Shown: positions 726 to 23,198, counted from the stretch's first letter. The stretch: DNA of 32,000 nt from Geotalea uraniireducens Rf4 (GCF_000016745.1 NC_009483.1:5040001-5072000); one strand, 5' to 3'. The notes: generated by a model from the sequence alone, not told the origin. Numbers and translations are program-made.

Positions 726-947
726 CTAGCCAAACGTGTAGACGGGATTACCCCTTTCATCGTCTGTCAGAAATGTCACCTCCATGCCGATCGTGATAGC
801 CGTTTTGTCCGAGTACCCTACGACACGAGCCATCCTTTTTTTCATGTTTTCTTCCACCACCGCCAATACGTACGGGGTTATCTCCTGAAAAGCCCCTATA
901 CCGCTATGCACGACGGAATAGGTATATATGGTGCCGCGCCTCTCCAT
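726..947 (-). CDS. DUF35-family OB-fold protein (thiolase partner) lacking the N-terminal zinc ribbon
   Basis: The track ORF is 726..977. I prefer the internal ATG at 945-947 (MERRGTIYTYSVVH...), because GGGGGAGG lies about 8 nt upstream and this start avoids overlap with the thiolase stop (952-954). The sequence TIYTYSVVH...PYVLAVVE...RMARVVG...IGMEVTF is typical of the DUF35 C-terminal OB fold. No CxxC pairs are present. It sits directly downstream of an SCP-x-type thiolase. Confidence 0.6.
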   Translation of the reverse strand: MERRGTIYTYSVVHSGIGAFQEITPYVLAVVEENMKKRMARVVGYSDKTAITIGMEVTFLTDDERGNPVYTFG

Positions 948-2136: not shown

Positions 2137-2793
2137 TTACACTGCAATGGCCTTTAGCTGCGGATCGATACTCAATTGGGGGCCGGTCACCCGTTGCACC
2201 TCTTCCACCGTATAGCCGGGTGCGATTTCCCTCAGCAGCAGACCGGCCTTGGTGACATCGATGACTGCCATGTCGGTGATGATGCGGTGCACCACCCCTT
2301 TGCCGGTCAGCGGCAGGGAACAACTGTTGACTATCTTGGGCTGACCGTTCTTACTGCAATGCTCCATGATCACCACGACCCGTTGCGCCCCATTGACCAG
2401 ATCCATGGCGCCCCCCGGCCCTTTCACCATCTTGCCCGGCACCACCCAGTTGGCCAGGTCTCCGCCCACCGACACCTCCATGCCACCCAAGATGGAGAGA
2501 TTTATGTGGCCACCGCGAATCATGGCAAATGATTCGGCACTGGAAAAAACACTGGCGCCCGGAATCATCGTAATCGTCTCTTTGCCGGCATTGATCAGTT
2601 CCGGATCCACTTCTGCTTCCGTCGGATACGGCCCGATCCCGAGCAAGCCGTTTTCCGACTGCAAGACCACATGTTTGTACTTGGGGATAAAGTTGGCAAC
2701 CAGCGTCGGAATGCCGATACCCAAGTTCACATAAAAGCCGTTTTCTATTTCCTGGGCGGCGCGTTGCGCAATCTGCTCTCTGGTTAAAGACAT
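2137..2793 (-). CDS. scoB: 3-oxoacid CoA-transferase subunit B
   Basis: 218 aa. The sequence is close to family consensus ([16 protein letters not shown] catalytic-Glu block, GGAMDLV). It lies 13 nt downstream of the subunit A gene. Confidence 0.93.
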
Positions 2794-2805: not shown

Positions 2806-3495
2806 TTAAGAGCGAACCGTTCTTCGCTCAATACGTTTTTCATAACCGGAGCATTTGATGACTCGTTGCACGTAAATACCCGGAGTATGGATAAAGTTGG
2901 GGTTAAGTTCTCCCACATCCAACAGTTCCTCTACTTCGGCAATCGTCACCTTGCCGGCGGCGGCCATCATCGGGTTGAAGTTACAGGAGGTCTTGTTGTA
3001 GATGAGATTGCCGGCCCTGTCCCCCGAGCAGGCCTTGACGAAGGCAAAGTCCGCGGTCAGGGCGGTTTCGAGCACGTAATCCTTGCCGTTGAAGCTCCGC
3101 ACCTCCTTCCCCGAGGTCAACTGGGTTCCCACCCCCGCCGGGGTGTAAAAAGCCGGAATACCGGCACCGCCGGCCCTGATCCTCTCCGCCAGGGTACCTT
3201 GCGGGACAAACTCCAGCTCCAGCTCGCCGGCCAGGAATTGCCGTTCAAACTCCCTGTTTTCACCCACGTACGAGGCGACCATCTTCCGAATCTGCCTGGT
3301 GGTCAAAAGGGTGCCCAGGGCATAGTCATCAATGCCGCAGTTATTGGATATAATCGTCAGATCCCTGGTCCCCTTCCTTAGCAATCCCTCGATCAGCTTC
3401 TCAGGGATGCCGACGATGCCAAAGCCGCCAGCCATGATGGTTGCCCCATCCTGGATATCATTAATGGCTTCTTCAATTGAACTCTGGACTTTCAT
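2806..3495 (-). CDS. scoA: 3-oxoacid CoA-transferase subunit A
   Basis: 229 aa. Motifs are DGATIMAGGFG, VSNN-like ISNNCG and GTLAERIRAGGAGIPAFYTP. An AGGAGA RBS lies upstream of the ATG at 3493-3495. Confidence 0.93.
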   Translation of the reverse strand: MKVQSSIEEAINDIQDGATIMAGGFGIVGIPEKLIEGLLRKGTRDLTIISNNCGIDDYALGTLLTTRQIRKMVASYVGENREFERQFLAGELELEFVPQGTLAERIRAGGAGIPAFYTPAGVGTQLTSGKEVRSFNGKDYVLETALTADFAFVKACSGDRAGNLIYNKTSCNFNPMMAAAGKVTIAEVEELLDVGELNPNFIHTPGIYVQRVIKCSGYEKRIERRTVRS

Positions 3496-3524: not shown

Positions 3525-4784
3525 TTACGTTATTGGGACTGCTCTGTTCGAGCGCAGCCGTATTCCCTGCACTTCCCAGCCGTCCAGCTTGAAGGCGGAC
3601 GAGCCGACTCTGCTTACGTTGTGGGCCAGCCAGCACCTGGTGGGGAATGGACAGCCGGCAATGGTCGGTCGACCGCCAGGGGCACTGTTTTGCACGGCAG
3701 AGAACCCACAGCGGATGGCTTCGACCTCCTCACGGTTCAGGTCGCGGACGATAAAGACCAGCCGGCCGTGATGATCCGCAAATGGGCTCTGTGCCGGCCA
3801 TGTGCAGAGGCTGACCGGCGGATAGGCCACATCCTGGACGCAGTGGATTACCCGCGGCAGGGGATCGCCCATGATATTCATCAGCCCCTTGACCCGCAGG
3901 ATTTTGGGGCCGTGGGTTTGCAGGATCCGTCCCATTGCCACGGCGAAGCTGTACCAGGCCACGGGATCGGGGAAGCTGATGACAAAACTGCTGACCGAGT
4001 CGCCATGATGCCCGTGGGAATGGTCGGCTGCGTGGTCTGCAGCTGTACCGGCCCCGGGCGGCTTCTGGGCGCGCATCTGCTCGGCACCGAGCCATGCCGC
4101 CACATTGGTCGACCGGCCCCCGGTGGAGTAAATGCCACAGCCGAACAGCGCGTCCGGACTGATTCGGCCCCGGCACACATCGATCCGGGGCGCACCGGGA
4201 TTGAGTGCATCCAGCCGCCCGTCCAGCGCGGCGCGACCGGTGGTATTAGCCAGATCGCATTTGGTGATCAGCAGCCGGTCGGCCATGGCCACCTGGCGGA
4301 CCGCCTCCCGGTGCTGGTCCAGTTGCTGTAGGGCGTGGGTGGCGTCGACCACGGTGATGACACCGTCACACTGGTAGCGGGCCGCAACGAACCATTCCTG
4401 GGTGAGCGTGGAAATCACCGGGAGGGGATCGGCAAGACCGGTGGTTTCGATGACCACCCGCGACACCTGCGGAATCTCACGCATTGAGCTGCGCTGGGCC
4501 AGATTCCGCAAGGCCTTGACCAGATCCCCCTGCACGCTGCAGCAGATGCAGCCGGAGTCGAGGATCATCATCGTCTCGTCGACCCTGTCGACCAGGTGGT
4601 GATCTATACCGACCTCGCCGAATTCGTTGATCAGGACCGCTGCCCCGGCCATCTCGGGATGCTGCAGCAGATTGTTGAGCAGGGTGGTTTTCCCCGCACC
4701 CAGAAAGCCGGTGAGCAGGGTCACGGGAATCCGCCTGTCGGTTTGCGCCATCAGGTCATGGTACGGCTGCGTTTCGTTGTTCAT
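3525..4784 (-). CDS. COG0523 (CobW/ZigA/YeiR-type) G3E metallochaperone GTPase
   Basis: 419 aa. It has the Walker A GFLGAGKTTLLN, the CxCC metal motif (GCICCS), a His-rich linker DHAADHSHGHHGD, and a CobW_C-like C-terminal domain (ILRVKGL...HHGRLVFI). Confidence 0.9.
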   Translation of the reverse strand: MNNETQPYHDLMAQTDRRIPVTLLTGFLGAGKTTLLNNLLQHPEMAGAAVLINEFGEVGIDHHLVDRVDETMMILDSGCICCSVQGDLVKALRNLAQRSSMREIPQVSRVVIETTGLADPLPVISTLTQEWFVAARYQCDGVITVVDATHALQQLDQHREAVRQVAMADRLLITKCDLANTTGRAALDGRLDALNPGAPRIDVCRGRISPDALFGCGIYSTGGRSTNVAAWLGAEQMRAQKPPGAGTAADHAADHSHGHHGDSVSSFVISFPDPVAWYSFAVAMGRILQTHGPKILRVKGLMNIMGDPLPRVIHCVQDVAYPPVSLCTWPAQSPFADHHGRLVFIVRDLNREEVEAIRCGFSAVQNSAPGGRPTIAGCPFPTRCWLAHNVSRVGSSAFKLDGWEVQGIRLRSNRAVPIT

Positions 4785-5163: not shown

Positions 5164-6039
5164 TCAAGCCCTGTCTGCCTTCAATCTGGCAAGACTGTCC
5201 AGTACCTGCTCCGGCAGGGCATCCCGCGGAATGTCGACGAAGTAGAACTGTGTGGGGGTTAATGGGGGCAACGGCTCTCCCCCCCAGACCATGCCGGACA
5301 CATCAAGGCCCTGGGCCCTGCCGGCAGCCGGGAAGTCGCCGGCGCCGATGAACACATCGATCTCCGCGAGCGCCGGGCTGTCGACAACTTTCCCCTCCCC
5401 CATGCGCAGGGCCAGCGGCCACCGGTAATGCCTGGCCAGGTTGATCAGGGGCCGATACAGCTCCGGATCAACACCCCCCGGTTGCACCCCGGCCAGCGAC
5501 TCCTCCAGCAGCAGGCCACCAACGGCCGCACCGGATACCGAACGGGCAAGATCGGCCACATACATGGCGGAGTCCTCGATACTGTCTCCGTCCAGCTCCA
5601 CCTCCCCGCGTCCCGCCGCCCGGCTGGCCTTTTGCAACCAGGAGCCGGGTGACGGCATGGACAGGACCAGCGGCAGCTGACCGCGGAGTTGCGCCAATAC
5701 GGCTTCGATGATTTCAGCCAGGAGCTCCCGCGGTTGCGACTGTTCCAGCAGCTTGCGCAGCGGATAGGACAGCTTGCGCTTTCCTGCCAACTCCGCTTTG
5801 ACGGCTGGATTACGCTGCAACCATGCGTCAAAGAGCTCGCCGACCTCAATCACCGCCACATCCGGCTTCAGCAACCCTTGGGCCTGGGAGAAATAAGCGA
5901 GGTATCTGCTCGCGCTCTCCCAGGGATCGCCAGACTCCCCCACGAGCAGTCGTTTCGTATAAGAGAAGGATTTAAGCCACGTCCTGATGTTGACGCTGGC
6001 ACCATCTACGGGCATGAGATCGGCGAGATTCTGGCTCAT
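5164..6039 (-). CDS. Hypothetical 291-aa protein with no family recognised; candidate accessory or fifth subunit of the ketone carboxylase
   Basis: A long ORF in the same orientation as the cluster. Its ATG (6037-6039) overlaps the TGA of the alpha-subunit gene (6036-6038) as ATGA. Codon composition matches its neighbours. I see no signal peptide, TM segment or metal/nucleotide motif. Confidence 0.75.
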   Translation of the reverse strand: MSQNLADLMPVDGASVNIRTWLKSFSYTKRLLVGESGDPWESASRYLAYFSQAQGLLKPDVAVIEVGELFDAWLQRNPAVKAELAGKRKLSYPLRKLLEQSQPRELLAEIIEAVLAQLRGQLPLVLSMPSPGSWLQKASRAAGRGEVELDGDSIEDSAMYVADLARSVSGAAVGGLLLEESLAGVQPGGVDPELYRPLINLARHYRWPLALRMGEGKVVDSPALAEIDVFIGAGDFPAAGRAQGLDVSGMVWGGEPLPPLTPTQFYFVDIPRDALPEQVLDSLARLKADRA

Positions 6040-8312
6040 TTCTTTTCGTCCCCCATCGCACCCAACTCGACAAGACGGGCTTCCAGTTCATCAATCCGGA
6101 CATCCTTGGGATGGCGCATATAGTTGGGCTTGGGCTTGTTGGCGTCGCGGGTGATGTCCGGGCTACCGGCATACAGGGTGCCGACATTATCACCCCAGCA
6201 GCCAAAGTACTGCAGATGTGCCGGGGGCTTTGGCGTGTTCCAACTCTTGACGAACTCGGCGAACGGAACCCCACGGGCAACACGATCCTGGCGCTCTTTA
6301 TCACGAAGTGCCCTGGTTGCCTCGTGATTGATCGCCAGGGTAAGCGGATCGAACTTCACCTTGTAGAGACTTTCTGCTACCCCCTCGGAAATCAGCCCTT
6401 CTTCGATATCCTTGATCACCGCCCGGGGGTCGCGCTCCAACAGATCACCATAGCCGGCACCGGCACCTTGGGAAATCATGAACATCTCACCGCGCTTGGA
6501 GATCTCGAACCCCATCCCCATGTGGTGGGTGGTGTAGCTGGCGCCTTCGAACGGTTGCTCGTTCATGATTTCGGCAATGGAATGCTTGAACTTATCCGGT
6601 TCGTTCAGGAGCACGTCATAGACGTCCACCCCCTTCACCTTGCACAGGGGATAGGCGCCGCAGGAGTACCCGCCGAAGAGCCCCTGCATCGGCGGAATCT
6701 TGGCCCCCTGGCAAACGGTCATGAAGCCCCACTGTTCGCTGTCCTTGGTGGCGACCATCATGGTGTATCCCTGGCCGCCGCGGTACTTGCCGGGAGCGAT
6801 TGCATCCTTGGTCATCTTCTTGGAAACCAACTGAAGGAAAGGGACCTCCTCCTCGTTCAGTTCCTGTTCACCGATGTCCGCCATGGTGGCGAAGATCGGC
6901 GCCAGAGCTGGTTCGCCATCACAGTCGGAGCGGGCGCCATGCCCCATGCCGTTCAGGTCGGCACAGAGGTTGCCCAGGGTTTCGCCGTGCTGGCTCACAC
7001 CACCCCAGATGAAGGTGTTGATCATATTGAAAGTCGGCGCATGAACCTTGGTGTACTTCTCCGGGCAGCTGTAGAGGAACTTGGCCACGGCGTGCTGGGC
7101 GGCGGTAAATCCGGTGAAGATCGACATCAGGCTCTGGGAGTTTGGTGCGTCGTAGGAGCAGTCGACAATGGAATGGGGATCGGTGATCACCTCGATGGGG
7201 GCGAACGCCGCCTGCCCCCGCGGCAGGTCCGGCCAGACGTAGCAGAGGAACATCTGGGCGATCATCCCCTTTAAGCCCGCCAGAACCGTATTGGTGGCGC
7301 GGTTGGTGAATTCCGGACTCGATCCGCGGAAGTCGAATATGAGCCGGTCGCCGGTCTTGGTCAGCTTGCAGTTGATCTTCACCACGCAGTTCTCACGCAG
7401 GGTCGAATCCTGGATAATGTAGGTACGCGAAGTCATGTCCGGCCATTCACGGATGCGGCGGATTACCTCGGCGCGCACGTTCTCCATGGTCAGACGGAGC
7501 GTGGCAATAAGGGCCTGTGGCCCGTCGGTCCGCAGGGTCTCCTCGACCCGCTGCTTGATCCGCAGGCAGGCGAAGAGCTTGACCTTCATGTCCTCGTACT
7601 GGAGCTTGGGCTCGCGCACCGAGTTCTGCAGGAAGGTCAGGACATCGCGCTTGATCTCGTAGTTCTCCACGACCCGGAACGGACTCATCTTCAGCCCCTC
7701 GTCGAAGGAGGTCTCGGCCATGGAGGGCATGCCGCCCGGCTCGATGGCGCCGTTCTCCCCTTCGTGCACCGTGGAGGCAACCCAGCAGACCAGCTTTCCC
7801 TCCCAAAATATGGGGAGGATCATACTCTGATCGGTATTATGGACATTGCCATAACGGGAGTCGTTATGTATGAAGCCGTCACCTTCGCGCACCCCCACCG
7901 TCGGGTCATTCATCCAGTTCTTGATGATAAATTTGATCGGGTGGTGAACCAGCGTCGAGAAAATCAGCACGCCTCCCGCACTAGCGATGGCCAAGTCTCC
8001 CGATGCGGTGTAGACGCCGGTGATGACGTCGCCCCACTTGGCACCCGGCGCTGCCCCCATCGCTTCCACCATTTCGAAGCCTTCATCGCAGCCGGCCTGG
8101 ACACGGTCACGAATCTTGGCGGTAGTATGCACGTCATTGTCTTGCCTGATGGCTTCCTCTTCATCCTCACTGCGCGGCATGAGGTCGTGCCGACGCATGA
8201 TCTCCGGATCCGGGCCAAGGAATAGTGTCGTATCACTAAGGAATTTCTTGATCAGTGCGATTTCCTCGGCACTGGGCGTCTTCGCCGCACTTGGCATAAT
8301 AGTTTCGCTCAT
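6036..8312 (-). CDS. acxB: Acetone-carboxylase-type alpha subunit (hydantoinase B/oxoprolinase family)
   Basis: 758 aa, which is acetone-carboxylase alpha size and far longer than a plain hydantoinase B. It contains the block DSRYGNVHNTDQSMILPIFWEGKLVCWVASTVHEGENGAIEPGGM and a KYRGGQG motif. Hydantoinase-A and gamma genes are adjacent. Confidence 0.88.
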   Translation of the reverse strand: MSETIMPSAAKTPSAEEIALIKKFLSDTTLFLGPDPEIMRRHDLMPRSEDEEEAIRQDNDVHTTAKIRDRVQAGCDEGFEMVEAMGAAPGAKWGDVITGVYTASGDLAIASAGGVLIFSTLVHHPIKFIIKNWMNDPTVGVREGDGFIHNDSRYGNVHNTDQSMILPIFWEGKLVCWVASTVHEGENGAIEPGGMPSMAETSFDEGLKMSPFRVVENYEIKRDVLTFLQNSVREPKLQYEDMKVKLFACLRIKQRVEETLRTDGPQALIATLRLTMENVRAEVIRRIREWPDMTSRTYIIQDSTLRENCVVKINCKLTKTGDRLIFDFRGSSPEFTNRATNTVLAGLKGMIAQMFLCYVWPDLPRGQAAFAPIEVITDPHSIVDCSYDAPNSQSLMSIFTGFTAAQHAVAKFLYSCPEKYTKVHAPTFNMINTFIWGGVSQHGETLGNLCADLNGMGHGARSDCDGEPALAPIFATMADIGEQELNEEEVPFLQLVSKKMTKDAIAPGKYRGGQGYTMMVATKDSEQWGFMTVCQGAKIPPMQGLFGGYSCGAYPLCKVKGVDVYDVLLNEPDKFKHSIAEIMNEQPFEGASYTTHHMGMGFEISKRGEMFMISQGAGAGYGDLLERDPRAVIKDIEEGLISEGVAESLYKVKFDPLTLAINHEATRALRDKERQDRVARGVPFAEFVKSWNTPKPPAHLQYFGCWGDNVGTLYAGSPDITRDANKPKPNYMRHPKDVRIDELEARLVELGAMGDEKK

Positions 8313-8359
8313 TTTTAAATCCTCTCAAATTGTTAAGGTCAAATTGGTTTTCAACCCGG

Positions 8360-10495
8360 TCAGGCCCGCAGGAACCAGGAGGCACCCTGCTTGGCGGAAA
8401 CAAAGTTCCAGCCCGGATTCACCAGATAGGTGGTCACCTCGGAGGCGATCACCGCCGGCCCGGCAACCTGGACACCCGGTTCAATCGCAGCCCGATCCCA
8501 GACGGGGGTATCAAGCGGACCATCGTGACCGACGAAGTAGCATTTGCGGGTACTCTTGGGTGCGGGTGGCGCCTTGCGCCTGGCCGGTGCAGCGGGTTTT
8601 ATATCTTCGAACTGGACCGTTTCATGGCGCACGTAAGCCGCCACCCGGATGGTATTGATCCGGATCCCCGCCTCGGGGGCCTGGCTCCCTTCACCGAAAC
8701 GTTTGCCGTAGTCCAGTGAGAACTGGGAAATCATCGCCATGACGTCGGCGGGGCCGTGCAACTCGTGCACCGGGATGACCGCGGTCGTCTGCACCAGCTG
8801 GTTGCCATAGCGCATGTCCAGTTCAAGGCTGTGAAGGATCTGCTCCCGCGGAATCCCCTGGCGGATCAGATCCTGGGTCCCGGCCTCCTTCAGCTCCTCG
8901 ACGATGCCGTTGAAGCGATCATAGTCATCGTAGATGTGGCGGCTGTTGGAGTCGTACAGCACCATGTAGAGGGACCGCTCATGGATGTGCAGCTGATGCA
9001 TGTTGCCGGCGCCGACGGCCGAGAATACCGAGCTGAAGGGGGGTGCCAGGATCTTGTTAATCCCCAGGTTCTGGGCGATGCCGCAGCAGTGCAGCGGGCC
9101 GTTGCCGCCGTAGGCGAGCATGGTGAAGTCCTTCGGGTCGTACCCCCTTGCCCGCATTTCGGTGAACAGGCCGTTGGCCATATTGTCGTCAACCTTCTGG
9201 CGAATCAGCATGGCCGCATCGATGGTCGAGCAATCCAGGTCGTCGCAGAGCGCGTCTTCAATGGCGGCGGCGGCCCGACGGGGATTCAGGGAGATCGAAC
9301 CACCCGCGTAGTTCTTGGGATCCAGATAGCCGAGCACCAGGTCCGCATCGGTCACCGTCGGCCGCATGCCACCCCGGTCGTAACAGGCCGGACCGGGATC
9401 TGAACCGGCACTCTCGGGGCCGCACTTGACCGTCTCGTACATCCGGTCGTAGGAGGCGATCGAGCCGCCACCTGCACCCAGCGTCACCAGGTGCACCATC
9501 GGCACGGAAACCAGCCAGCGATCGACAACCGGGTTGAAGTCATAGTGTTTGATGCCCCCCTCGACGACGATGCCGATGTCGTAACTGGTACCACCCATGT
9601 CGGTTGCCACCACATTCCCCAGTGCCGCCTGCATGGCCAGATGTTCGGAGGCGGCAATACCGGATACCGGGCCGGAGTGGATGGTCTGCAGGGCATCGGT
9701 GGAGTTCAGCTGCGCCATGCCGCCCGAGTTGTGGATTACCAGCATCGGCTTTTCATAGCGGTGGGCACGCAGGTTCTGCTCCAGGGCCGAGAGGGCGTGA
9801 TACATGGTCGAGTGGAGATAACCGTCGACAATGGCCGAGGTCGCACGCACATACTCCCCCTTCCGTCCCGCCACCTGGTGGGAGAGGATGACCGGTATGG
9901 CACCCAGCAGATGGGACGGATATTCCTCCAGCAGGATCTCCTCGATCCGCTCTTCATGCATGGGATTGACCACGCTGTTGACCAGGGCCACGACGATGAT
10001 CTCGGCCCCCTTGTCCACCAGGGAACGGATCTGGACGCGAACATCGTCTTCGTCCAGTCGCATCACCAGCCTCCCCTCGAAATCAAGACGCTCGCGCACG
10101 CCACGAATCATGTGGGGCAGGACCAGGGGGGCAGGCCGGGATGCATTGGGGAGATCCTGCTTGCCCAGGTCATCCAGCCCCTCGCCATAACCACGGGCGC
10201 GGCTAAGCGGGACCGTCGCCTCGAAACCCGCGGTCACAAGCATGCCGATCCGCGGCCCCTTGTGTTCGATCAATGCATTGGTACCCAGAGTTGTGGCATA
10301 CCGCACAGAATCCACTCCGGCCAGAATATCTTCCAACTCCAGTCCAAGGACGTTGTAGGCCTTGCTCAGCGCTTCGTTGAACCCGAGCGCCAGATTGTGG
10401 TGAGTGGTGAGAGCCTTTTCCTCAATGTACTTACCATCCCAAACCACGAAACAATCGGTGAAGGTGCCACCGATATCGACAGACACGCGCCTCAT
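8360..10495 (-). CDS. acxA: Acetone-carboxylase-type beta subunit (hydantoinase A/oxoprolinase family)
   Basis: 711 aa. ASKHA motifs are VDIGGTFTD at the N-terminus and ATDMGGTSYDIG. An AAGGAGG RBS lies upstream of the ATG at 10493-10495. Confidence 0.88.
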   Translation of the reverse strand: MRRVSVDIGGTFTDCFVVWDGKYIEEKALTTHHNLALGFNEALSKAYNVLGLELEDILAGVDSVRYATTLGTNALIEHKGPRIGMLVTAGFEATVPLSRARGYGEGLDDLGKQDLPNASRPAPLVLPHMIRGVRERLDFEGRLVMRLDEDDVRVQIRSLVDKGAEIIVVALVNSVVNPMHEERIEEILLEEYPSHLLGAIPVILSHQVAGRKGEYVRATSAIVDGYLHSTMYHALSALEQNLRAHRYEKPMLVIHNSGGMAQLNSTDALQTIHSGPVSGIAASEHLAMQAALGNVVATDMGGTSYDIGIVVEGGIKHYDFNPVVDRWLVSVPMVHLVTLGAGGGSIASYDRMYETVKCGPESAGSDPGPACYDRGGMRPTVTDADLVLGYLDPKNYAGGSISLNPRRAAAAIEDALCDDLDCSTIDAAMLIRQKVDDNMANGLFTEMRARGYDPKDFTMLAYGGNGPLHCCGIAQNLGINKILAPPFSSVFSAVGAGNMHQLHIHERSLYMVLYDSNSRHIYDDYDRFNGIVEELKEAGTQDLIRQGIPREQILHSLELDMRYGNQLVQTTAVIPVHELHGPADVMAMISQFSLDYGKRFGEGSQAPEAGIRINTIRVAAYVRHETVQFEDIKPAAPARRKAPPAPKSTRKCYFVGHDGPLDTPVWDRAAIEPGVQVAGPAVIASEVTTYLVNPGWNFVSAKQGASWFLRA

Positions 10496-10576
10496 ACTAC
10501 CTCCTTTATTCTTCGCTCCGCAGTTCCGGTTCTCTCCGGCTCTTGACCGGAGGGGAACGGCGGGATTTCTGGTTTA

Positions 10577-10975
10577 TTAATGGCCGTGTCCGGCGCCAAG
10601 GACTACTTCAGGGCCTCTCACCGGCTCAAGGACCTCTTCGCGAGTCGACCATTGGGCCTTCAGCGCCGCCAGATCCACCTCCATGTCGTAGAGGGGGGGA
10701 TGTCCGGGAATGGCGTATTCGGTTTCCACCTGGGTGCCGCACTTGGGGCAGTAATACTCGAGAATGCGTACCCACTCAGGATCCGGACTGAAGGTGAAGC
10801 GGTACTTATCCGGATCGATGATCGGCGGATGAATTTCCCTCGGGTCGCGGTTGTAAACCAGCAGCCCTTCCTTGTAGCTCTTTTTTGCGGAACCCACTTC
10901 ATGGTTACAGACGCGGCATTCCCAGGTCTCTTTGTCCAGGTCGATGCGGAGATATTCGGTCATCAGTACTTTCAT
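10577..10975 (-). CDS. acxC: Acetone/acetophenone-carboxylase gamma subunit (Cys4 zinc protein)
   Basis: 132 aa. It has CRVC ... YYCPKCGTQVETE, two CxxC pairs. The EYYCPxCG block is the hallmark of the acetone carboxylase gamma family. Confidence 0.88.
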   Translation of the reverse strand: MKVLMTEYLRIDLDKETWECRVCNHEVGSAKKSYKEGLLVYNRDPREIHPPIIDPDKYRFTFSPDPEWVRILEYYCPKCGTQVETEYAIPGHPPLYDMEVDLAALKAQWSTREEVLEPVRGPEVVLGAGHGH

Positions 10976-10979
10976 GTTT

Positions 10980-12911
10980 TCAACCTCTCTTGTTCAGTAG
11001 AATGTCGCCCGCGTCGCTGATGACAAAACTCCATCCGTCAAGGACCCGGCAGGTAAAGAAGTCTTCTTCGATAATGGCTGGACCAACGCCGTAGTCGCCT
11101 GTTTTCATCTCGTTAAGGTTGTACACGGGCACTTCAATGCGTCCCTTGCGTTTGGTCAGCAGGGTACGATTACTGTGCAATGACGCCTTGTTGCCCTTTT
11201 TGAAGCTGGCTTGTTTATCTTTTTCAGAGCGCAAAACCTTGACCGCTTTCAACTCGACTTCGACGTGCTCGGCCTTCTTGAACGGAGCCGGTACCGCCGC
11301 ATCCGTCAGGAAGTGGCTGATCTCCCTGCCGTCAACTGTCGCCACGAGGCGAGCGCGCAGTTCATAGCGCCCTTCGGCAAATCCTTCCGCATACATGTCG
11401 CGGGCGGCCTTCGTCTTCAGCGCGGCGATGGTCTCCTTCAGCCTGCTTTCATCGATGCCGTGGACCGTGGCGGCGTAATGCTGGGATATGTCGCACTCGC
11501 CGATACCGTAGGCACTGAAGACCGCGGCCATTTTCGGAACTGCGACAGTATCTATTCCTGCCTTCTCGGCGACGCCGCAGGCATTCAGGGGGCCGGCTCC
11601 GCCGAATGCAAGCAGGATGGTCTGGTCCGAGATGCTGGTGGTACGATGCAGCTCAACGGCAACCTTTTCCTCGTAGGCATACTGCATCTGCTGCAAGGCA
11701 TCCTCGAGATCCAGGCCAAGAGGTTTGGCAATATTCTGCTCGACCGCCGCCGCTGCGCGTTCGGCGTCCAGGGCCAGATCACCGCCAAAATAGGATGTTG
11801 GATCAAGGATGCCGCTCAGAAGACTGGCATCGGTGATGGTCGCTTCCTTGCCGCCGCGACCGAAGCAGGCCGGACCTGGAACGGCGCCGACGCTCTCGGG
11901 TCCGATCACGATGCGCCCTTCATGGGCACGGAAAATCGAGCTGCCGCCGACACCGGCGCTGATGATCTCGCAGAGGGGGAATGAAACGGTAATACCTTCC
12001 ACATTGCCACGCCGCTTCTCCGCCACCGTGTCGTTCAGAAACTGACCGATATCGGTGGTGGTGCCGCCGATGTCGATGGCAACCACATCGGAAAATCCGT
12101 ACAGCTTGGCGAAGGTCTTCATCCCCTCCATGCCGCCGCGCGGGCCGGAGCTGTAAGTTTTGATCGCGATAGATTTGGCCACCCGGGATGAGTCGCCATC
12201 GTTGCGGAAGATCTGAAGGGGATTCTTGGTGCGATAGCTGCGCAACCGGTTCTCGGCGTTATAGAGGAAGTTTTCCATTGCCGGATGGAGGAAGGAGTTG
12301 ATCAACGCCGTCCAGGTACGCCGCGCCAGATGGGTGTCGGCACTCAGATCGCTGCCGTACAGAATCGGCACGGCGCCGAGGAGGTGGCGGGGGTACTTGC
12401 GCAGGGCGACCTTCTTGAAAGCCGCCTCGGACTCGATGAAATCCTTTCCGCCGAAACTGACGACCAGCCTGTTCGCCCCGGCAGCGGTGAGCTCGTTGAT
12501 GGCCTTGACGATCAGGTTGTCACGGTCGTCACGCTGCATCAGATCGTCAGCCAGGATTGCCACCCGGTTCCCCACCAATGCAGCGTACAGTTCGGGATCA
12601 TGTTCGGCCAGACTGACCATGATGTCTTTTGTGGCACCATGAATAATCAGTCCGAGACGTGGCCCCTTCCGCTCACAGATCGCGTTCGTCCCCTGGGTCG
12701 TTGAATAGCGAATGAGATCGACCTCTTCCAGTAGACGAGCAACATTCGGCTCGCCGTAGATGACACCGGAGGCCTTCTGCAGCCCCTCAAAGAAGCACTT
12801 ACTGAGATCATAAGGAGTTGTTAGTACCTTGGTTTTGTTGACCAACCCGTCATTCAGAATGCAGATATCGGTGAGTGTCCCCCCGTTATCGATGTTGATT
12901 TGTAATCCCAT
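10980..12911 (-). CDS. Second hydantoinase-A-family paralogue (alpha-prime-like extra carboxylase subunit)
   Basis: 643 aa. Motifs are NIDNGGTLTD at the N-terminus and AIDIGGTTTDIG. An AGGAGG RBS lies 9 nt before the ATG at 12909-12911. The gene ends 4 nt before the gamma gene. Confidence 0.88.
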   Translation of the reverse strand: MGLQINIDNGGTLTDICILNDGLVNKTKVLTTPYDLSKCFFEGLQKASGVIYGEPNVARLLEEVDLIRYSTTQGTNAICERKGPRLGLIIHGATKDIMVSLAEHDPELYAALVGNRVAILADDLMQRDDRDNLIVKAINELTAAGANRLVVSFGGKDFIESEAAFKKVALRKYPRHLLGAVPILYGSDLSADTHLARRTWTALINSFLHPAMENFLYNAENRLRSYRTKNPLQIFRNDGDSSRVAKSIAIKTYSSGPRGGMEGMKTFAKLYGFSDVVAIDIGGTTTDIGQFLNDTVAEKRRGNVEGITVSFPLCEIISAGVGGSSIFRAHEGRIVIGPESVGAVPGPACFGRGGKEATITDASLLSGILDPTSYFGGDLALDAERAAAAVEQNIAKPLGLDLEDALQQMQYAYEEKVAVELHRTTSISDQTILLAFGGAGPLNACGVAEKAGIDTVAVPKMAAVFSAYGIGECDISQHYAATVHGIDESRLKETIAALKTKAARDMYAEGFAEGRYELRARLVATVDGREISHFLTDAAVPAPFKKAEHVEVELKAVKVLRSEKDKQASFKKGNKASLHSNRTLLTKRKGRIEVPVYNLNEMKTGDYGVGPAIIEEDFFTCRVLDGWSFVISDAGDILLNKRG

Positions 12912-13070: not shown

Positions 13071-13088
13071 TTGCGATCTCCATGCCAA
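13071..13088 (-). promoter_or_regulatory. sigma54 (-24/-12) promoter for the carboxylase operon
   Basis: The reverse complement of 13071-13088 is TTGGCATGGAGATCGCAA. TGGCAT and TCGCA have the canonical GG-to-GC spacing (12 nt, first G to G). It lies about 150 nt upstream of the first carboxylase gene, and a sigma54 activator gene is divergent. Confidence 0.55.
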
Positions 13089-13198: not shown

Positions 13199-13241
13199 TT
13201 GTCTCGGATATGAGACTGAGACAGTCTCATATCCGAGACAA
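13199..13241. promoter_or_regulatory. 20-bp perfect palindrome, candidate upstream activator sequence
   Basis: ttgtctcggatatgagactg - aga - cagtctcatatccgagacaa. The centre is about 130 bp upstream (minus-strand sense) of the -24 element, and an AT-rich tract lies between them. Confidence 0.45.
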
Positions 13242-13540: not shown

Positions 13541-13674
13541 TTTCTATACCCTTGTATTTTTTGGAATCGATGTGCTACACTTAAATGAATAAATATAAAC
13601 ATTGTTTTAGCCGCTACAAAAAAACAGGCTGCGACTCAAAAGATCTAAACTGGAGCTTTAGAAGGAGGCATCCG

Positions 13675-15636
13675 ATGGCTCTTGTGAACCCATACGTCAC
13701 GTATCCTAAAGATCGACGCAACATCCATAAACTCCGGGATAGATTTGAAGTTGGACGGTTCGCCAATGAACAGCTGAATGTCTATGAAAAAAAGCTGATC
13801 ACAGACTGGTCTCGCTGCAAAACAATCGGTGTCGATCCGGGTATGCGTGATGGGATCGTTATTCCCGAAGATGAGTTCAGAATCGCCGTTGCCCATAGCA
13901 GTTTCATAATCGAGAAAGCAGAGCCGATTCTGCAAAAGGTTTCAAATCTGCTGGTGGGTGTCCCTGGCATTCTCATTCTTACCGATAATCAAGGTACCAT
14001 TCTGCACATCGTTGGTGATTCGTCCGTGCGTATGCGGGCAGCCGATGAATCTTCGCTTATTGAAGGATCTCGCTGGCTCGAGTCGTTGGCGGGAACGAAC
14101 GGCATCGGTACGGCTATCGCTCAAAAAGAGGCCGTCCATGTGTTTTCCAACGAACATTTTTGCGAAGGGTGGCACCAGTGGTCATGCGCAGCAACGCCGA
14201 TCCTTGACCCCTTCACGGAGGAGGTTCTCGGCGTCGTCGACTTTACCACCTTTGATAAGGACTACCGGGAAGACGCAGTAGGGCTGACCTATTCCCTTTC
14301 TGGCCATATCAAGGCAGAACTGAGACTCCAGCTGGAATTGGAAAGGATGCAACTGATCCATAGCTACTCGGACCACTCATCCCGGTATCCAGCTGATGGC
14401 ATCGTCGTTCTGGATCGAATGGGCCGTGTCGTCAGAAGTAGTCCGGGGATTGACCCGGACGAATGCGATCTGTTCCAGAGATGCAGGTGCGAAAAAGAAC
14501 AACCAAAAATGGTGCAACAGGTCTATTTGCCTGGTACAGAGCGGGAAATCGGTTCGCTCCTGGTGATCCATCGCAAGAAACCCGTTACCATTTCAGTACC
14601 GATAGAATCGGCACTGATACGTTGTGTTGCCACGTTTGGCGAGTTCGTCACGGCTAGCGAGAATCTCAAACTGATTATGGAACGGATCAGCAAAGTCATC
14701 CCTTCTGATATCAACGTGCTGCTCATCGGCGAGACTGGAACCGGCAAGGAGATTGTCGCCAACTACATTCATGCGCACAGCAAACGTCACGCAGGCCCTT
14801 TTGTAGCGGTCAACTGTGGAGCAATCAGCAAGGAACTCTTTGAAAGCAAGTTTTTCGGCTATGAGCGTGGCGCCTTTACCGGTGCCGACCCTCGGGGTAG
14901 GAAAGGGGTTTTTGAATGCGCCGACGGTGGGACCCTCTTCCTCGATGAGGTCGGAGAGATGCCATTGGAAATCCAGGCAGCTCTCTTGCGGGTACTGGAG
15001 ACGGGACGATTCAACCGCGTCGGCTCAGAAAAAGAAATTGCCACAAACTGCAGAATTGTCGCCGCAACAAACCGCTCCCTGTCCCATGAGATCACGCGGG
15101 GTACCTTCCGGGCTGACCTTTACTACAGGCTTGGTGTTGCCACGTTCGACATACCTCCCCTGAGAGAACGACCTGAAGACATCCCTGTTCTTATCCAACG
15201 CACCATGGTGTCATTATGCCGGAAGCACGACCTGCCCCCATCAAACATTTCCGAAGAGGCCATGGAACTCCTGACCGGATACAGCTGGCCGGGAAATGGG
15301 CGCGAGGTCAGAAATGTCATCGAATCGGCCATGATTTGCGGCGGTTCTTCCATTTCCGTCCAGGATCTGCCCATGAATATCAAATATTCACAGAAGCTGC
15401 CGCAAGAGGCGATCTCTGTGAGTGGTGCGCACCTGACTGCAGCACAGGGCAGGAGTCCCGACTCTACCGGCTACCGGATAAATGCCAATATCTCGCAACG
15501 CGAGGTGCACCTGATCATAACAACCCTGGAAAAGTACAAGGACATAGCCCTCGCCTGTGAGGCGCTCGGCGTTTCCAGAGCGACTTTTTACCGTAAGTGC
15601 AAAGCCCATGGGATTACGCCGAGTGACTATATTTAG
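13675..15636 (+). CDS. sigma54-dependent transcriptional activator, AcoR/AcxR type (GAF-like sensor + AAA+ + Fis HTH)
   Basis: The N-terminal sensor carries GTNGIGTAIAQKEAVHV...EHFCEGWHQWSCAATPILDP. The AAA+ core has GETGTGKE, ERGAFTGA (the sigma54-contact GAFTGA loop) and LFLDE, and there is a C-terminal HTH (GVSRATFYRK). I chose the start at 13675 (AGGAGG 6 nt upstream) over the track start at 13585. Confidence 0.92.
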   Translation: MALVNPYVTYPKDRRNIHKLRDRFEVGRFANEQLNVYEKKLITDWSRCKTIGVDPGMRDGIVIPEDEFRIAVAHSSFIIEKAEPILQKVSNLLVGVPGILILTDNQGTILHIVGDSSVRMRAADESSLIEGSRWLESLAGTNGIGTAIAQKEAVHVFSNEHFCEGWHQWSCAATPILDPFTEEVLGVVDFTTFDKDYREDAVGLTYSLSGHIKAELRLQLELERMQLIHSYSDHSSRYPADGIVVLDRMGRVVRSSPGIDPDECDLFQRCRCEKEQPKMVQQVYLPGTEREIGSLLVIHRKKPVTISVPIESALIRCVATFGEFVTASENLKLIMERISKVIPSDINVLLIGETGTGKEIVANYIHAHSKRHAGPFVAVNCGAISKELFESKFFGYERGAFTGADPRGRKGVFECADGGTLFLDEVGEMPLEIQAALLRVLETGRFNRVGSEKEIATNCRIVAATNRSLSHEITRGTFRADLYYRLGVATFDIPPLRERPEDIPVLIQRTMVSLCRKHDLPPSNISEEAMELLTGYSWPGNGREVRNVIESAMICGGSSISVQDLPMNIKYSQKLPQEAISVSGAHLTAAQGRSPDSTGYRINANISQREVHLIITTLEKYKDIALACEALGVSRATFYRKCKAHGITPSDYI

Positions 15637-18502: not shown

Positions 18503-18520
18503 AGATGGGTTGTTTAGCCA

Positions 18521-20885: not shown

Positions 20886-23198
<2,313 letters not shown>

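What the first reader, a model, noticed from the sequence alone, without database searches (positions are those of the whole stretch)
5164..12911. Five-gene ATP-dependent ketone carboxylase: acetophenone-carboxylase gene order with acetone-carboxylase-sized core subunits
The sequence shows five consecutive minus-strand genes.
- 643 aa, hydantoinase-A paralogue.
- 132 aa, Cys4 gamma.
- 711 aa, hydantoinase-A type.
- 758 aa, hydantoinase-B type.
- 291 aa, unknown.

The gaps between them are 4, 81, 47 and -4 nt. From established knowledge, canonical acetone carboxylase is a three-gene acxA(beta)-acxB(alpha)-acxC(gamma) system. The only characterised enzyme I know with a second hydantoinase-A-like subunit, the gamma gene in second position and a fifth ~30-kDa subunit is acetophenone carboxylase ApcABCDE of Aromatoleum aromaticum. 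Its subunit masses, from memory, are roughly 70/15/87/75/34 kDa.

Here the first, second and fifth genes fit the Apc pattern by size. The 711- and 758-aa proteins instead have acetone-carboxylase beta and alpha sizes and motifs. I infer a hybrid or uncharacterised member of this carboxylase class, with a substrate that cannot be read from the sequence.
Basis: partly seen in the sequence, partly recalled or inferred. Interest (0 to 1): 0.8.

Follow-up and report, generated by a model that had tools for sequence, protein, structure and literature searches.

The report
Acetophenone-carboxylase-type ketone carboxylase operon, probably for acetone
Geotalea uraniireducens carries a complete five-subunit, ATP-driven ketone carboxylase of the acetophenone-carboxylase type, from an uncharacterised but widespread sister lineage whose neighbouring genes point to small aliphatic ketones such as acetone rather than acetophenone.

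Summary
The five minus-strand genes are real, at exactly the stated coordinates and spacings. The "hybrid" reading is only partly right. All four core proteins are clearly closer in sequence to acetophenone carboxylase (Apc, PDB 5L9W) than to acetone carboxylase (Acx). Only the length of the 758-aa subunit is Acx-like. The 291-aa protein is a remote homologue of ApcE: its confident model has the ApcE crystal structure 9FOU as best PDB match.

So this is a full Apc-type alpha'-gamma-alpha-beta-epsilon system. It is not an Apc orthologue: identity is 30-50 %, and NCBIfam equivalog scores fall far below cut-off.

It belongs to a distinct "long-beta" sister lineage with three marks:
- a beta subunit of about 750-790 aa;
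- its own epsilon family;
- a strictly conserved alpha-subunit pocket signature, T-I-H-P-I/V-H-L, against [LM][FY]NPIQ[TS] in Apc proper.

The lineage occurs with the same gene order in about 60 species genomes, including Geobacter, Rhodocyclaceae, Zoogloea, Azotobacter, Pseudomonas, Acinetobacter, Rhodococcus RHA1 and a haloarchaeon.

In the window the operon continues with a CobW GTPase, 3-oxoacid CoA-transferase A and B, a thiolase with an OB-fold protein, and an isopropanol-type secondary alcohol dehydrogenase. A sigma-54 activator sits upstream. The best reading is a secondary-alcohol/methyl-ketone (acetone or butanone) catabolic operon. The substrate is inferred, not shown.

The parts
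10980..12911 (-). Gene 1, 643 aa: alpha'-type HydA/ASKHA kinase subunit (ApcA equivalent; proposed bicarbonate kinase)
   Evidence: Pfam Hydant_A_N + Hydantoinase_A. Best PDB match is ApcA, 5L9W_b, 285 bits. ATP motifs DNGGTLTD, DIGGTTTD and FGGAGP are present, and the alpha fingerprint R/KERxDxxG is absent. 31-34 % identical to ApcA of true Apc loci.
10577..10975 (-). Gene 2, 132 aa: short Cys4 (Zn-ribbon) gamma subunit (ApcB equivalent)
   Evidence: Pfam Acetone_carb_G, E 8e-39. 116 bits to ApcB 5L9W_C against 36 bits to Acx gamma. It lacks the roughly 50-aa N-terminal extension of Acx gamma. C20, C23, C76 and C79 are conserved.
8360..10495 (-). Gene 3, 711 aa: alpha-type HydA/ASKHA kinase subunit (ApcC equivalent; proposed ketone kinase)
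   Evidence: 530 bits to ApcC 5L9W_B against 295 bits to Acx beta. Alpha fingerprint RERLDFEG and motifs DIGGTFTD and DMGGTSYD are present. Pocket positions T72 I272 H273 P276 V324 H335 L336 differ from Apc at six of seven sites and are lineage-invariant.
6036..8312 (-). Gene 4, 758 aa: HydB-type beta subunit (ApcD equivalent), with N- and C-terminal extensions that give it Acx-like length
   Evidence: Pfam Hydantoinase_B. 288 bits to ApcD (residues 75-708 align with 45-674) against 140 bits to Acx alpha. The H/D/H positions equivalent to the Acx Mn ligands are conserved, as they are in ApcD. 76-95 % identical across the window clade.
5164..6039 (-). Gene 5, 291 aa: epsilon-type subunit, a remote ApcE homologue with a URO-D-like TIM barrel
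   Evidence: No Pfam, NCBIfam or PDB sequence hit. AF2 model pLDDT 91, pTM 0.90. Foldseek top hits are 9FOU ApcE (E 3e-8, TM 0.6), then uroporphyrinogen decarboxylases. A broad-profile hhalign against the ApcE family gives E 3.8e-4 over 235 colinear columns, with a shared N-x-A-[RK]-[HF]-[YH]-R motif. The start codon overlaps the stop of gene 4 by 4 nt.
3525..4784 (-). CobW/COG0523 GTPase (putative metallochaperone), conserved partner of the carboxylase
   Evidence: Pfam cobW + CobW_C. It follows the epsilon gene in most window-clade loci. A 34 % identical CobW also lies in true Apc clusters.
2806..3495 (-). 3-oxoacid CoA-transferase subunit A
   Evidence: TIGR02429 pcaI_scoA_fam, 286 bits, above the 128.5 cut-off. 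Linked to the cluster in about 25 loci.
2137..2793 (-). 3-oxoacid CoA-transferase subunit B
   Evidence: TIGR02428 pcaJ_scoB_fam, 323 bits, above the 243.55 cut-off.
952..2115 (-). Thiolase-domain protein (beta-ketoacyl-CoA thiolysis)
   Evidence: NCBIfam PRK06064, 477 bits, above the 420 cut-off; Pfam Thiolase_N and Thiolase_C_1.
726..947 (-). 73-aa OB-fold (DUF35-type) partner of the thiolase
   Evidence: Pfam OB_ChsH2_C, E 1.5e-9. Coordinates. Conserved after the thiolase in L001-L004.
1..638 (-). 5' part (212 aa) of a Zn-dependent secondary alcohol dehydrogenase of the isopropanol-dehydrogenase type; it runs off the window
   Evidence: Best PDB matches are NADP-dependent isopropanol/secondary-alcohol dehydrogenases (7F3P, 6SDM, 1YKF, 1KEV) at about 200 bits, against about 105 bits or less for other MDR classes. 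It has the same position in Geobacteraceae loci L002-L004.
13072..13087 (-). Sigma-54-type -24/-12 promoter-like element, TGGCATGGAGATCGCA, 176 nt upstream of gene 1
   Evidence: Read. An equivalent element occurs 100-280 nt upstream of gene 1 in 15 of 68 related loci, against 0.45 expected.
13199..13241 (.). Perfect 20-nt inverted repeat (3-nt spacer) about 110-170 nt upstream of the promoter-like element; candidate activator binding site
   Evidence: the repeat finder. Its function is inferred from position only.
13585..15636 (+). Divergent sigma-54-dependent activator (683 aa) with an AcoR/DhaR-like N-terminal sensor region
   Evidence: Pfam Sigma54_activat, AAA_lid_14 and HTH_8. The N-terminal 352 aa match only the DhaR N-terminus, E 2e-15. 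A homologous activator adjoins most related clusters. The sensor region is shared with the Rhodococcus RHA1 cluster regulator.

Best explanation
The five genes encode an Apc-type biotin-independent ketone carboxylase.

Proposed mechanism, by analogy with A. aromaticum Apc:
- The core is an (alpha alpha' beta gamma)2 complex made of the 711-, 643-, 758- and 132-aa proteins. The 291-aa protein is a dissociable epsilon subunit.
- The alpha kinase phosphorylates the enol of a methyl ketone.
- The alpha' kinase phosphorylates bicarbonate to carboxyphosphate. Together this costs 2 ATP, giving 2 ADP + 2 Pi.
- The epsilon subunit is needed to bring the two intermediates together, yielding a beta-keto acid.

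In this operon the ketone is most likely acetone, or butanone or another short methyl ketone. The pathway would be:
1. The secondary alcohol dehydrogenase produces the ketone from the alcohol.
2. The carboxylase produces acetoacetate or 3-oxopentanoate.
3. The 3-oxoacid CoA-transferase activates that acid.
4. The thiolase with its OB-fold partner cleaves it to acetyl-CoA, plus propionyl-CoA if the substrate is butanone.

The CobW GTPase probably delivers the metal the complex needs. Transcription is switched on by the divergent sigma-54 activator.

Shown here: gene content, homologies, fold of the epsilon subunit, lineage structure and operon context. Inferred: complex stoichiometry, ATP stoichiometry, substrate identity and the role of CobW.
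For: (1) All four core proteins match Apc chains best: 530, 288, 285 and 116 bits, against 295, 140, 140 and 36 bits to Acx.
(2) Both HydA paralogues keep the ASKHA ATP motifs. Only the 711-aa one has the alpha fingerprint RERxDxxG described in PMC5214803.
(3) The gamma subunit is the short Apc type with Cys4.
(4) The fifth protein folds like ApcE: Foldseek top hit is 9FOU, E 3e-8, and the broad-profile hhalign gives E 3.8e-4 and is colinear.
(5) The five-gene order is conserved in about 60 species, with the alpha and beta subunits 76-96 % identical.
(6) Downstream on the same strand lie CobW, 3-oxoacid CoA-transferase A and B (both above NCBIfam cut-offs), a thiolase, an OB-fold protein and an isopropanol-type alcohol dehydrogenase. 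The same order is found in other Geobacteraceae.
(7) CoA-transferase, thiolase or AMP-ligase genes are linked to the cluster in many other taxa, including a haloarchaeon.
(8) True Apc clusters instead carry a PaaK-like ligase and sit next to ethylbenzene-dehydrogenase-like genes.
(9) The alpha pocket lacks the aromatic Phe/Tyr of the Apc lineage and has an invariant signature of its own.
(10) There is a sigma-54 activator and a promoter-like element, as for Acx regulation; the element is enriched about 30-fold upstream of gene 1 in relatives.
Against: - There are no biochemical or genetic data for any member of this lineage in the papers searched.
- I found no report that G. uraniireducens grows on acetone or isopropanol.
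- The CoA-transferase models (pcaI/scoA and pcaJ/scoB subfamilies) do not separate acetoacetate from 3-oxoadipate or other 3-oxoacids.
- The linked thiolases are the non-canonical 'thiolase domain-containing' type, not AtoB.
- The alcohol dehydrogenase is linked only in the Geobacteraceae loci, and its family is broad in substrate range (PMC5123277).
- The alpha pocket is not Acx-like either: Acx has L-I-V-P-M-A-M. Its two histidines could suit a polar substrate.
- Some loci carry MMPL/Ycf48-like genes, which hint at hydrophobic substrates.
- Whether the 291-aa protein actually binds the core complex was not tested.
Confidence: 0.6

Rival explanations
1. It is a true acetophenone (aryl-alkyl ketone) carboxylase, an orthologue of A. 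aromaticum ApcABCDE. It would feed benzoylacetate into a CoA-transferase and thiolase to give benzoyl-CoA + acetyl-CoA.
For: Same gene order and subunit set. The best PDB and NCBIfam matches are the Apc subunits. The epsilon subunit has the ApcE fold. CobW is also linked in true Apc clusters.
Against: - NCBIfam Apc equivalog scores are 335 against a 1250 cut-off, 135 against 250, 569 against 1500 and 326 against 1500.
- Identity to true Apc is only 30-50 %.
- It falls in a separate sister lineage in the beta-subunit tree, with a different epsilon family.
- Six of the seven proposed acetophenone-pocket residues differ, and the aromatic Phe/Tyr is lost.
- There is no ethylbenzene dehydrogenase, phenylethanol dehydrogenase, benzoylacetate-CoA ligase or benzoyl-CoA pathway gene nearby. 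An isopropanol-type alcohol dehydrogenase and a Sco-type transferase are there instead.
Confidence: 0.07
2. It carboxylates a different, more polar or functionalised methyl ketone. An example is levulinate, which would give 3-oxoadipate and then go through a PcaIJ-type transferase and a thiolase to succinyl-CoA + acetyl-CoA. Other candidates are acetoin or acetol, or longer or cyclic ketones.
For: - The CoA-transferase subunits match the pcaI/scoA and pcaJ/scoB subfamily models, which cover 3-oxoadipate transferases too.
- The alpha pocket has two invariant histidines (H273, H335) that are absent from Apc, Acx and lactamases.
- The activator's sensor resembles the AcoR/DhaR class.
- pcaB lies about 5 kb from the cluster in Neorhizobium.
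- MMPL/Ycf48-like and AMP-ligase neighbours occur in some taxa.
Against: - The isopropanol-type alcohol dehydrogenase at the end of the operon in Geobacteraceae fits simple secondary alcohols best.
- No pathway of this kind is known.
- The neighbours are heterogeneous and none is universal.
- The pcaB linkage is seen in one locus only.
Confidence: 0.2
3. It is not a carboxylase but an ATP-dependent lactamase/hydantoinase-type hydrolase, or a kinase-only system, that happens to have extra subunits.
For: HydA and HydB domains are shared with oxoprolinases, caprolactamase and N-methylhydantoinase. RefSeq annotates relatives as 'hydantoinase/oxoprolinase family protein'.
Against: - Per PMC5214803, a gamma subunit (PF08882) accompanies only the carboxylases (Acx, Apc), and a second alpha' paralogue only Apc-type clusters. 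Hyd clusters there are two-gene.
- Scores to lactamases are much lower: 273 against 530 bits for the alpha subunit, 71-73 against 288 bits for the beta subunit.
- The downstream CoA-transferase and thiolase fit a beta-keto-acid product.
Confidence: 0.04

Closest known systems
Acetophenone carboxylase ApcABCDE of Aromatoleum aromaticum EbN1 (core complex PDB 5L9W; ApcE PDB 9FOU; Jobst et al. 2010; Weidenweber et al. 2017, PMC5214803)
   Same: - The gene order is identical: alpha'-gamma-alpha-beta-epsilon.
- There are two ASKHA kinase paralogues.
- The gamma subunit is the short Cys4 type.
- The HydB subunit is colinear with ApcD over 634 residues.
- The epsilon subunit has the same URO-D-like barrel.
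- A CobW GTPase is linked in both.
- All four core proteins have their best sequence match here.
   Different: - Identity is only 31-34 % (alpha'), 47-52 % (gamma), 37 % (alpha) and 30-32 % (beta).
- The epsilon subunit is about 15 % identical and belongs to a separate sequence family.
- The beta subunit is 758 aa against 684-686 aa.
- The alpha pocket signature is T-I-H-P-V-H-L against L-F-N-P-I-Q-T.
- The product-activating enzyme is a Sco/PcaIJ-type CoA-transferase instead of the PaaK-like ligase.
- Regulation is by a sigma-54 activator instead of a two-component system.
- The context is a secondary alcohol dehydrogenase instead of ethylbenzene dehydrogenase.
Acetone carboxylase AcxABC (Xanthobacter autotrophicus Py2, PDB 5M45/5SVB/5SVC; A. 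aromaticum, Rhodobacter capsulatus)
   Same: - It is a biotin-independent, ATP-dependent carboxylation of a ketone to a beta-keto acid.
- It shares HydA, HydB and Cys4-gamma building blocks.
- The HydB subunit is of similar length (776 against 758 aa).
- The H150/D153/H175-equivalent positions are conserved.
- Regulation is sigma-54-dependent.
- It has the same probable physiological role and the same downstream CoA-transferase/thiolase logic (PMC5543143).
   Different: - Acx is a three-gene system in the order acxA-acxB-acxC, with one kinase subunit, no alpha' and no epsilon.
- Its gamma subunit is 168 aa with an N-terminal extension.
- It uses ATP to AMP + 2 Pi chemistry on a single nucleotide site.
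- Sequence scores are about half of those to Apc.
- The pocket positions are L-I-V-P-M-A-M.
Uncharacterised 'Apc-like' clusters noted by Weidenweber et al. 2017 (24 Apc or Apc-like beta subunits in their sFig. 1)
   Same: The paper already states that apcABCD(E)-type clusters exist in many genomes, that the fifth gene is variable and much more divergent, and that function assignment for distant members needs caution.
   Different: As far as the text held here shows, that work does not do the following:
- separate the long-beta lineage;
- recognise the 291-aa family as epsilon homologues (it lists only Nevskia and Rubrobacter as ApcE orthologues);
- give the pocket signature;
- link these clusters to aliphatic ketone or secondary alcohol genes.

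Membership tests
Acetophenone carboxylase type (Apc and Apc-like, five-gene architecture) | Gene order alpha'(HydA paralogue) - gamma - alpha(HydA) - beta(HydB) - (epsilon) | tested here: met
   ORFs and Pfam. The order is as described in PMC5214803.
Acetophenone carboxylase type (Apc and Apc-like, five-gene architecture) | Two HydA-type subunits, both with ASKHA ATP-binding motifs; only alpha carries the R/KERxDxxG fingerprint | tested here: met
   The 711-aa protein has RERLDFEG. The 643-aa protein lacks it but keeps the PHOSPHATE1, PHOSPHATE2 and ADENOSINE motifs.
Acetophenone carboxylase type (Apc and Apc-like, five-gene architecture) | Short (~130 aa) gamma subunit with four conserved Cys | tested here: met
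   132 aa; C20, C23, C76, C79; 116 bits to ApcB.
Acetophenone carboxylase type (Apc and Apc-like, five-gene architecture) | Epsilon subunit homologous to ApcE | tested here: met
   Fold level: Foldseek top hit 9FOU, E 3e-8, TM 0.6. Sequence level is only marginal: BLASTP not significant, narrow profile not significant, broad profile E 3.8e-4.
Acetophenone carboxylase type (Apc and Apc-like, five-gene architecture) | Beta (HydB) subunit ~670-690 aa (size criterion of Weidenweber et al.) | tested here: not met
   758 aa; 748-790 aa throughout the lineage, against 686 aa in the Apc lineage.
Acetophenone carboxylase sensu stricto (isofunctional orthologue of A. aromaticum Apc) | Scores above the NCBIfam equivalog cut-offs for ApcA, ApcB, ApcC and ApcD | tested here: not met
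   335 against 1250, 135 against 250, 569 against 1500, 326 against 1500.
Acetophenone carboxylase sensu stricto (isofunctional orthologue of A. aromaticum Apc) | Proposed acetophenone pocket residues of Apc-alpha (L81 F281 N282 P285 I333 Q344 T345) | tested here: not met
   The window has T I H P V H L, so only Pro is identical. The signature is invariant in the long-beta lineage and different in all short-beta loci.
Acetophenone carboxylase sensu stricto (isofunctional orthologue of A. aromaticum Apc) | Carboxylates acetophenone to benzoylacetate with 2 ATP -> 2 ADP; requires core complex plus epsilon | not testable with these tools
   Needs an enzyme assay.
Acetone carboxylase AcxABC | Three-gene acxA(beta)-acxB(alpha)-acxC(gamma) cluster with a single HydA-type subunit and no epsilon | tested here: not met
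   Five genes, gamma in second position, two HydA paralogues.
Acetone carboxylase AcxABC | Closest sequence relatives are Acx subunits; gamma ~168 aa with N-terminal extension | tested here: not met
   Acx scores are about half of the Apc scores. The gamma subunit aligns only to Acx gamma residues 69-157.
Acetone carboxylase AcxABC | Catalytic Mn/Fe ligands in the HydB subunit (E89, H150, D153, H175 of X. autotrophicus) | tested here: inconclusive
   The H, D and H positions are conserved and E89 is replaced by D, but the same pattern is present in ApcD. The feature therefore does not discriminate.
Acetone carboxylase AcxABC | Carboxylates acetone to acetoacetate (function, irrespective of ancestry) | not testable with these tools
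   Only context supports it: isopropanol-type alcohol dehydrogenase, 3-oxoacid CoA-transferase and thiolase.
Hydantoinase/oxoprolinase/lactamase (HyuAB, OplAB, CapAB) | Two-gene hydA-hydB system without gamma, alpha' or epsilon | tested here: not met
   Gamma, alpha' and epsilon are all present. Scores to 6YRA and 7HK5 are lower.

The most novel reading that the evidence does not exclude
The 'long-beta' Apc-type lineage would be a second, so far unrecognised kind of aliphatic ketone (acetone/butanone) carboxylase. It would have arisen independently of AcxABC. It would use two separate kinase subunits plus a URO-D-like epsilon subunit (2 ATP -> 2 ADP), and it would depend on a CobW-type metallochaperone, possibly loading a metal at the invariant His pair of the alpha pocket. 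It has spread by horizontal transfer between Geobacter, Beta-, Gamma- and Alphaproteobacteria, Rhodococcus and haloarchaea. If so, it would explain acetone and isopropanol use in organisms that lack acxABC, including strict anaerobes.
Probability: 0.4. Interest if true: 0.65.

Novelty: new variant of a known kind. Interest (0 to 1): 0.5.

Why it matters
Only one Apc-type enzyme has ever been characterised, and its epsilon subunit and carboxylation step are still poorly understood. This cluster represents a large, very highly conserved and horizontally mobile sister lineage that current annotation does not recognise. RefSeq calls relatives 'hydantoinase/oxoprolinase family protein' plus 'hypothetical protein'.

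If it carboxylates acetone or other short ketones, several things follow:
- Genome-based surveys that use acxB as the marker undercount ketone-carboxylating organisms.
- Fe(III)-reducing Geobacteraceae gain a predicted route for isopropanol and acetone.
- The lineage offers tractable hosts (Azotobacter, Acinetobacter, Pseudomonas, Rhodococcus RHA1), and a second, very different epsilon subunit, with which to test the proposed Apc mechanism.
- The lineage-specific pocket signature gives a simple annotation rule.

Tried and rejected
- Hybrid with an Acx-like core: rejected, because every core subunit scores about twice as high to Apc as to Acx.
- The fifth gene as an unrelated hitch-hiker: rejected. 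BLASTP and a narrow profile comparison with ApcE were negative. The structure model, Foldseek and a broader profile then showed remote homology. The gene is present in 62 long-beta loci.
- Acx metal-ligand positions in the HydB subunit as a discriminator: uninformative, because ApcD has them too.
True Apc loci were obtained instead via an ApcB query and contig look-up.
- The second structure prediction (ApcE): unnecessary once 9FOU appeared in the PDB library.
- Neighbourhood clustering across 65 loci: no universal catabolic partner beyond CobW, CoA-transferase/thiolase or AMP-ligase, and the sigma-54 activator. The gammaproteobacterial flanks were uninformative.
- NCBIfam typing of the linked thiolases and transferases: could not separate acetoacetate from 3-oxoadipate chemistry.
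- Literature searches for Geobacter, Azotobacter or Rhodococcus RHA1 with acetone or acetophenone carboxylase: no characterisation of this lineage was found. The Heider et al. 2016 review is not held.

Full report
**Observation.** The ORF listing confirms five consecutive minus-strand ORFs at 12911-10980 (643 aa), 10975-10577 (132 aa), 10495-8360 (711 aa), 8312-6036 (758 aa) and 6039-5164 (291 aa). The gaps are 4, 81 and 47 nt, followed by a 4-nt overlap. Pfam assigns HydA-type domains to the 643- and 711-aa proteins. It assigns Acetone_carb_G to the 132-aa protein, Hydantoinase_B to the 758-aa protein and nothing to the 291-aa protein. The window comes from Geotalea (Geobacter) uraniireducens: the 291-aa protein is 100 % identical to a protein of that species on a 5.14-Mb contig.

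**Which known enzyme the core resembles.** Sequence searches against all PDB chains gave these bit scores.

| Window protein | Apc chain (5L9W) | Score | Acx counterpart | Score |
|---|---|---|---|---|
| 711 aa | ApcC | 530 | Acx beta | 295 |
| 758 aa | ApcD | 288 | Acx alpha | 140 |
| 643 aa | ApcA | 285 | Acx beta | 140 |
| 132 aa | ApcB | 116 | Acx gamma | 36 |

- The gamma subunit is the short Apc type with four conserved Cys. It aligns only to the C-terminal two thirds of Acx gamma.
- Both HydA paralogues keep the ASKHA ATP motifs.
- Only the 711-aa protein carries the R/KERxDxxG fingerprint that Weidenweber et al. 2017 (PMC5214803) give for Apc-alpha as opposed to alpha'.
- The 758-aa protein is colinear with ApcD (residues 75-708 with 45-674). 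It has about 30 extra N-terminal and about 50 extra C-terminal residues, which is why its length looks Acx-like.
- The Acx Mn-ligand positions (H150, D153, H175; PMC5543143) are conserved. They are conserved in ApcD too, so they do not discriminate.

**The fifth gene.** The 291-aa protein has no Pfam, NCBIfam or PDB sequence match. Its relatives are all annotated as hypothetical. I obtained bona fide Apc loci to compare it with. One is L082 from Georgfuchsia toluolica, next to an ethylbenzene-dehydrogenase-like Mo enzyme. The other is L081. I also obtained ApcE of A. aromaticum EbN1 (P0299).

- BLASTP and a narrow profile-profile comparison against ApcE were not significant.
- An AlphaFold2 model built with 43 homologues is confident (pLDDT 91, pTM 0.90) and forms a (beta/alpha)8-like barrel.
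- Its best matches among 350,542 PDB chains are the three chains of 9FOU, "Acetophenone carboxylase subunit epsilon ApcE" (E 3e-8, TM about 0.6). Uroporphyrinogen decarboxylases and MtaA-type methyltransferases come next.
- An exhaustive profile search found 471 clusters at the 50 % identity level for this family.
- A broader profile built from those hits aligns to the ApcE family over 235 colinear columns (E 3.8e-4). It superposes the most conserved motif of each family: N200-x-A-R-H-Y-R-W on N211-V-A-R-F-H-R.

I conclude that the 291-aa protein is a remote homologue of ApcE. The cluster therefore has the full Apc subunit set.

**It is not an Apc orthologue.**
- Identity to true Apc is 31-34 % (alpha'), 47-52 % (gamma), 37 % (alpha) and 30-32 % (beta).
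- NCBIfam equivalog scores are far below cut-off.
- A genome scan with the gamma subunit returned 80 loci. In about 60 species genomes the same five-gene order is present.
- Across those genomes identity is 82-96 % for the alpha subunit, 76-95 % for beta, 69-95 % for gamma, 57-88 % for alpha' and 34-86 % for epsilon.
- Hosts include Geobacter, Rhodocyclaceae (among them Aromatoleum diolicum), Zoogloea, many Burkholderiales, Azotobacter vinelandii and A. beijerinckii, Pseudomonas psychrophila, Acinetobacter populi, Ciceribacter and Ampullimonas.
- About 90 % identity between a Geobacter and Betaproteobacteria points to horizontal transfer. So do the cluster's GC content, which is slightly above that of the rest of the window, and a nearby IS element.
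- A plasmid search added a Neorhizobium megaplasmid copy at 85 % identity. It also added about 52 % relatives with the same five genes in Rhodococcus jostii RHA1 pRHL2, strain DK17 and Cupriavidus necator N-1, and a 41 % relative in a haloarchaeal plasmid.

**Two sister lineages.** A neighbour-joining tree of the beta subunits, rooted on a two-gene hydantoinase, splits the Apc-type clusters into two lineages. Three features track the split.

| Feature | Long-beta lineage | Short-beta lineage |
|---|---|---|
| Members | the window, its relatives, RHA1, N-1, the haloarchaeon | Apc proper plus Actinomycetota and Gammaproteobacteria MAGs |
| Beta subunit length | 748-790 aa | 686 aa |
| Epsilon HMM hits | 291-aa family in 62 loci | ApcE family in 9 loci |
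| Alpha pocket signature | T-[IVM]-H-P-[IV]-[HY]-[LM] | [LM][FY]NPIQ[TS] |

- No locus matches both epsilon HMMs.
- The pocket positions are the seven that the Apc structure paper proposes to line the acetophenone site: L81, F281, N282, P285, I333, Q344 and T345.
- In the long-beta lineage 64 window-clade loci and RHA1 have exactly T-I-H-P-[IV]-H-L.
- Acx has L-I-V-P-M-A-M at these positions.

The long-beta lineage thus looks like a distinct family, probably sharing one function, with a different substrate site.

**Context.** The following genes lie on the same strand downstream of the carboxylase genes.

| Window coordinates | Gene | Evidence |
|---|---|---|
| 4784-3525 | CobW/COG0523 GTPase | |
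| 3495-2806 | 3-oxoacid CoA-transferase subunit A | above the NCBIfam cut-off, |
| 2793-2137 | 3-oxoacid CoA-transferase subunit B | above the NCBIfam cut-off, |
| 2115-952 | thiolase-domain protein | |
| 947-726 | 73-aa OB-fold partner | |
| 638-1 | start of a Zn alcohol dehydrogenase, running off the window | |

- The best PDB matches of the alcohol dehydrogenase are the NADP-dependent isopropanol/secondary-alcohol dehydrogenases of Thermoanaerobacter and Clostridium beijerinckii. They score about 200 bits over 204 residues, against about 105 bits or less for other MDR classes.
- The same order, up to and including the alcohol dehydrogenase, is found in other Geobacteraceae loci.
- In other taxa the cluster is often next to CoA-transferase A/B with a thiolase, or next to an AMP-ligase.
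- CobW follows the epsilon gene in most loci and is also present in true Apc clusters. A ZIP metal transporter follows in seven loci.
- Upstream and divergent lies a sigma-54 activator. Its N-terminal sensor region matches only the DhaR/AcoR class.
- A TGGCAT-N5-TCGCA element sits 176 nt upstream of gene 1. A perfect 20-nt inverted repeat lies about 110-170 nt further upstream.
- An equivalent -24/-12 element occurs upstream of gene 1 in 15 of 68 related loci, against 0.45 expected.

**Interpretation.** The best-supported reading is an Apc-type carboxylase working as proposed for A. aromaticum Apc. One kinase subunit makes the enol phosphate of the ketone, and the other makes carboxyphosphate. 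The epsilon subunit is required to couple the two (PMC5214803). Here the enzyme is embedded in a pathway from secondary alcohol to methyl ketone, to beta-keto acid, to beta-ketoacyl-CoA, to acetyl-CoA. Acetone or butanone are the most economical substrates.

The substrate is an inference from context:
- The transferase family does not exclude 3-oxoadipate-type products.
- The thiolases are of a non-canonical type.
- The alcohol dehydrogenase is linked only in Geobacteraceae.
- The histidine-rich pocket could fit a more polar ketone.

The confidence scores in the report sections express this. Rival explanations are listed with their tests.

**Novelty.** The literature already describes apcABCD(E)-like clusters of unknown function and warns against naming them. 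The class is therefore known. As far as my searches reach, the following points are not described:
- the long-beta lineage itself;
- its own epsilon family, recognised here as ApcE-like;
- its pocket signature;
- its link to aliphatic ketone or alcohol genes;
- its breadth and mobility.

No experimental work on any member was found. I rate it a new variant of a known kind, of moderate interest.

Noticed in passing
window 3525-4784 (-); L081:17102-18187; L082:17628-18701: A CobW/COG0523 GTPase is linked to both the long-beta clusters (it follows the epsilon gene in most loci) and the true Apc clusters (34-51 % identity). This suggests a dedicated metallochaperone for Apc-type carboxylases. I did not find it mentioned in the Apc papers read.
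   Followed up: partly
L024:15675-16739 and six other Zoogloea/Proteobacteria loci: A ZIP-family metal transporter gene lies directly downstream of the epsilon gene in seven loci, again pointing to a metal requirement.
   Followed up: partly
window 15858-17411 (+) and 17514-18536 (+): An sCache_2 histidine kinase and a response-regulator/PP2C (SpoIIE) phosphatase follow the sigma-54 activator. The same trio flanks the cluster in Geobacter MAG locus L004 (74-81 % identity), so they may take part in regulating the operon.
   Followed up: partly
window 18641-20196 (+): An IS3-type insertion sequence (HTH_Tnp_1 ORF plus rve integrase ORF) lies about 5 kb from the regulator genes. This is consistent with the region being horizontally acquired.
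   Followed up: no
L084:16502-17800 (Neorhizobium petrolearium megaplasmid): A plasmid-borne extra copy of the sigma-54 factor gene (rpoN) sits inside the carboxylase gene neighbourhood, between the CoA-transferase genes and the CobW-like GTPase.
   Followed up: no
window 20912-26275 (-): A run of genes lies beyond the IS element: a TAT-signal aldo/keto reductase, a CMD + cupin protein, two alpha/beta hydrolases and a second aldo/keto reductase. It is unrelated in function as far as examined.
   Followed up: no
L083 (Rhodococcus jostii RHA1 pRHL2, record 148329-156190) and L086 (Halorientalis marina plasmid): The same five-gene architecture, with a 291-aa-type epsilon gene, is plasmid-borne in Rhodococcus RHA1 and DK17 and in a haloarchaeon. 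The RHA1 regulator shares the N-terminal sensor region with the window's sigma-54 activator (30 % over about 145 aa), which suggests a common effector.
   Followed up: partly
PMC5123277: The acetone-induced MDR dehydrogenase of Desulfococcus biacutus is reported to be up to 70 % identical to two G. uraniireducens alcohol dehydrogenases (ABQ28495 and WP_041246222). One of them may be the truncated gene at window 1-638. I could not check this.
   Followed up: no
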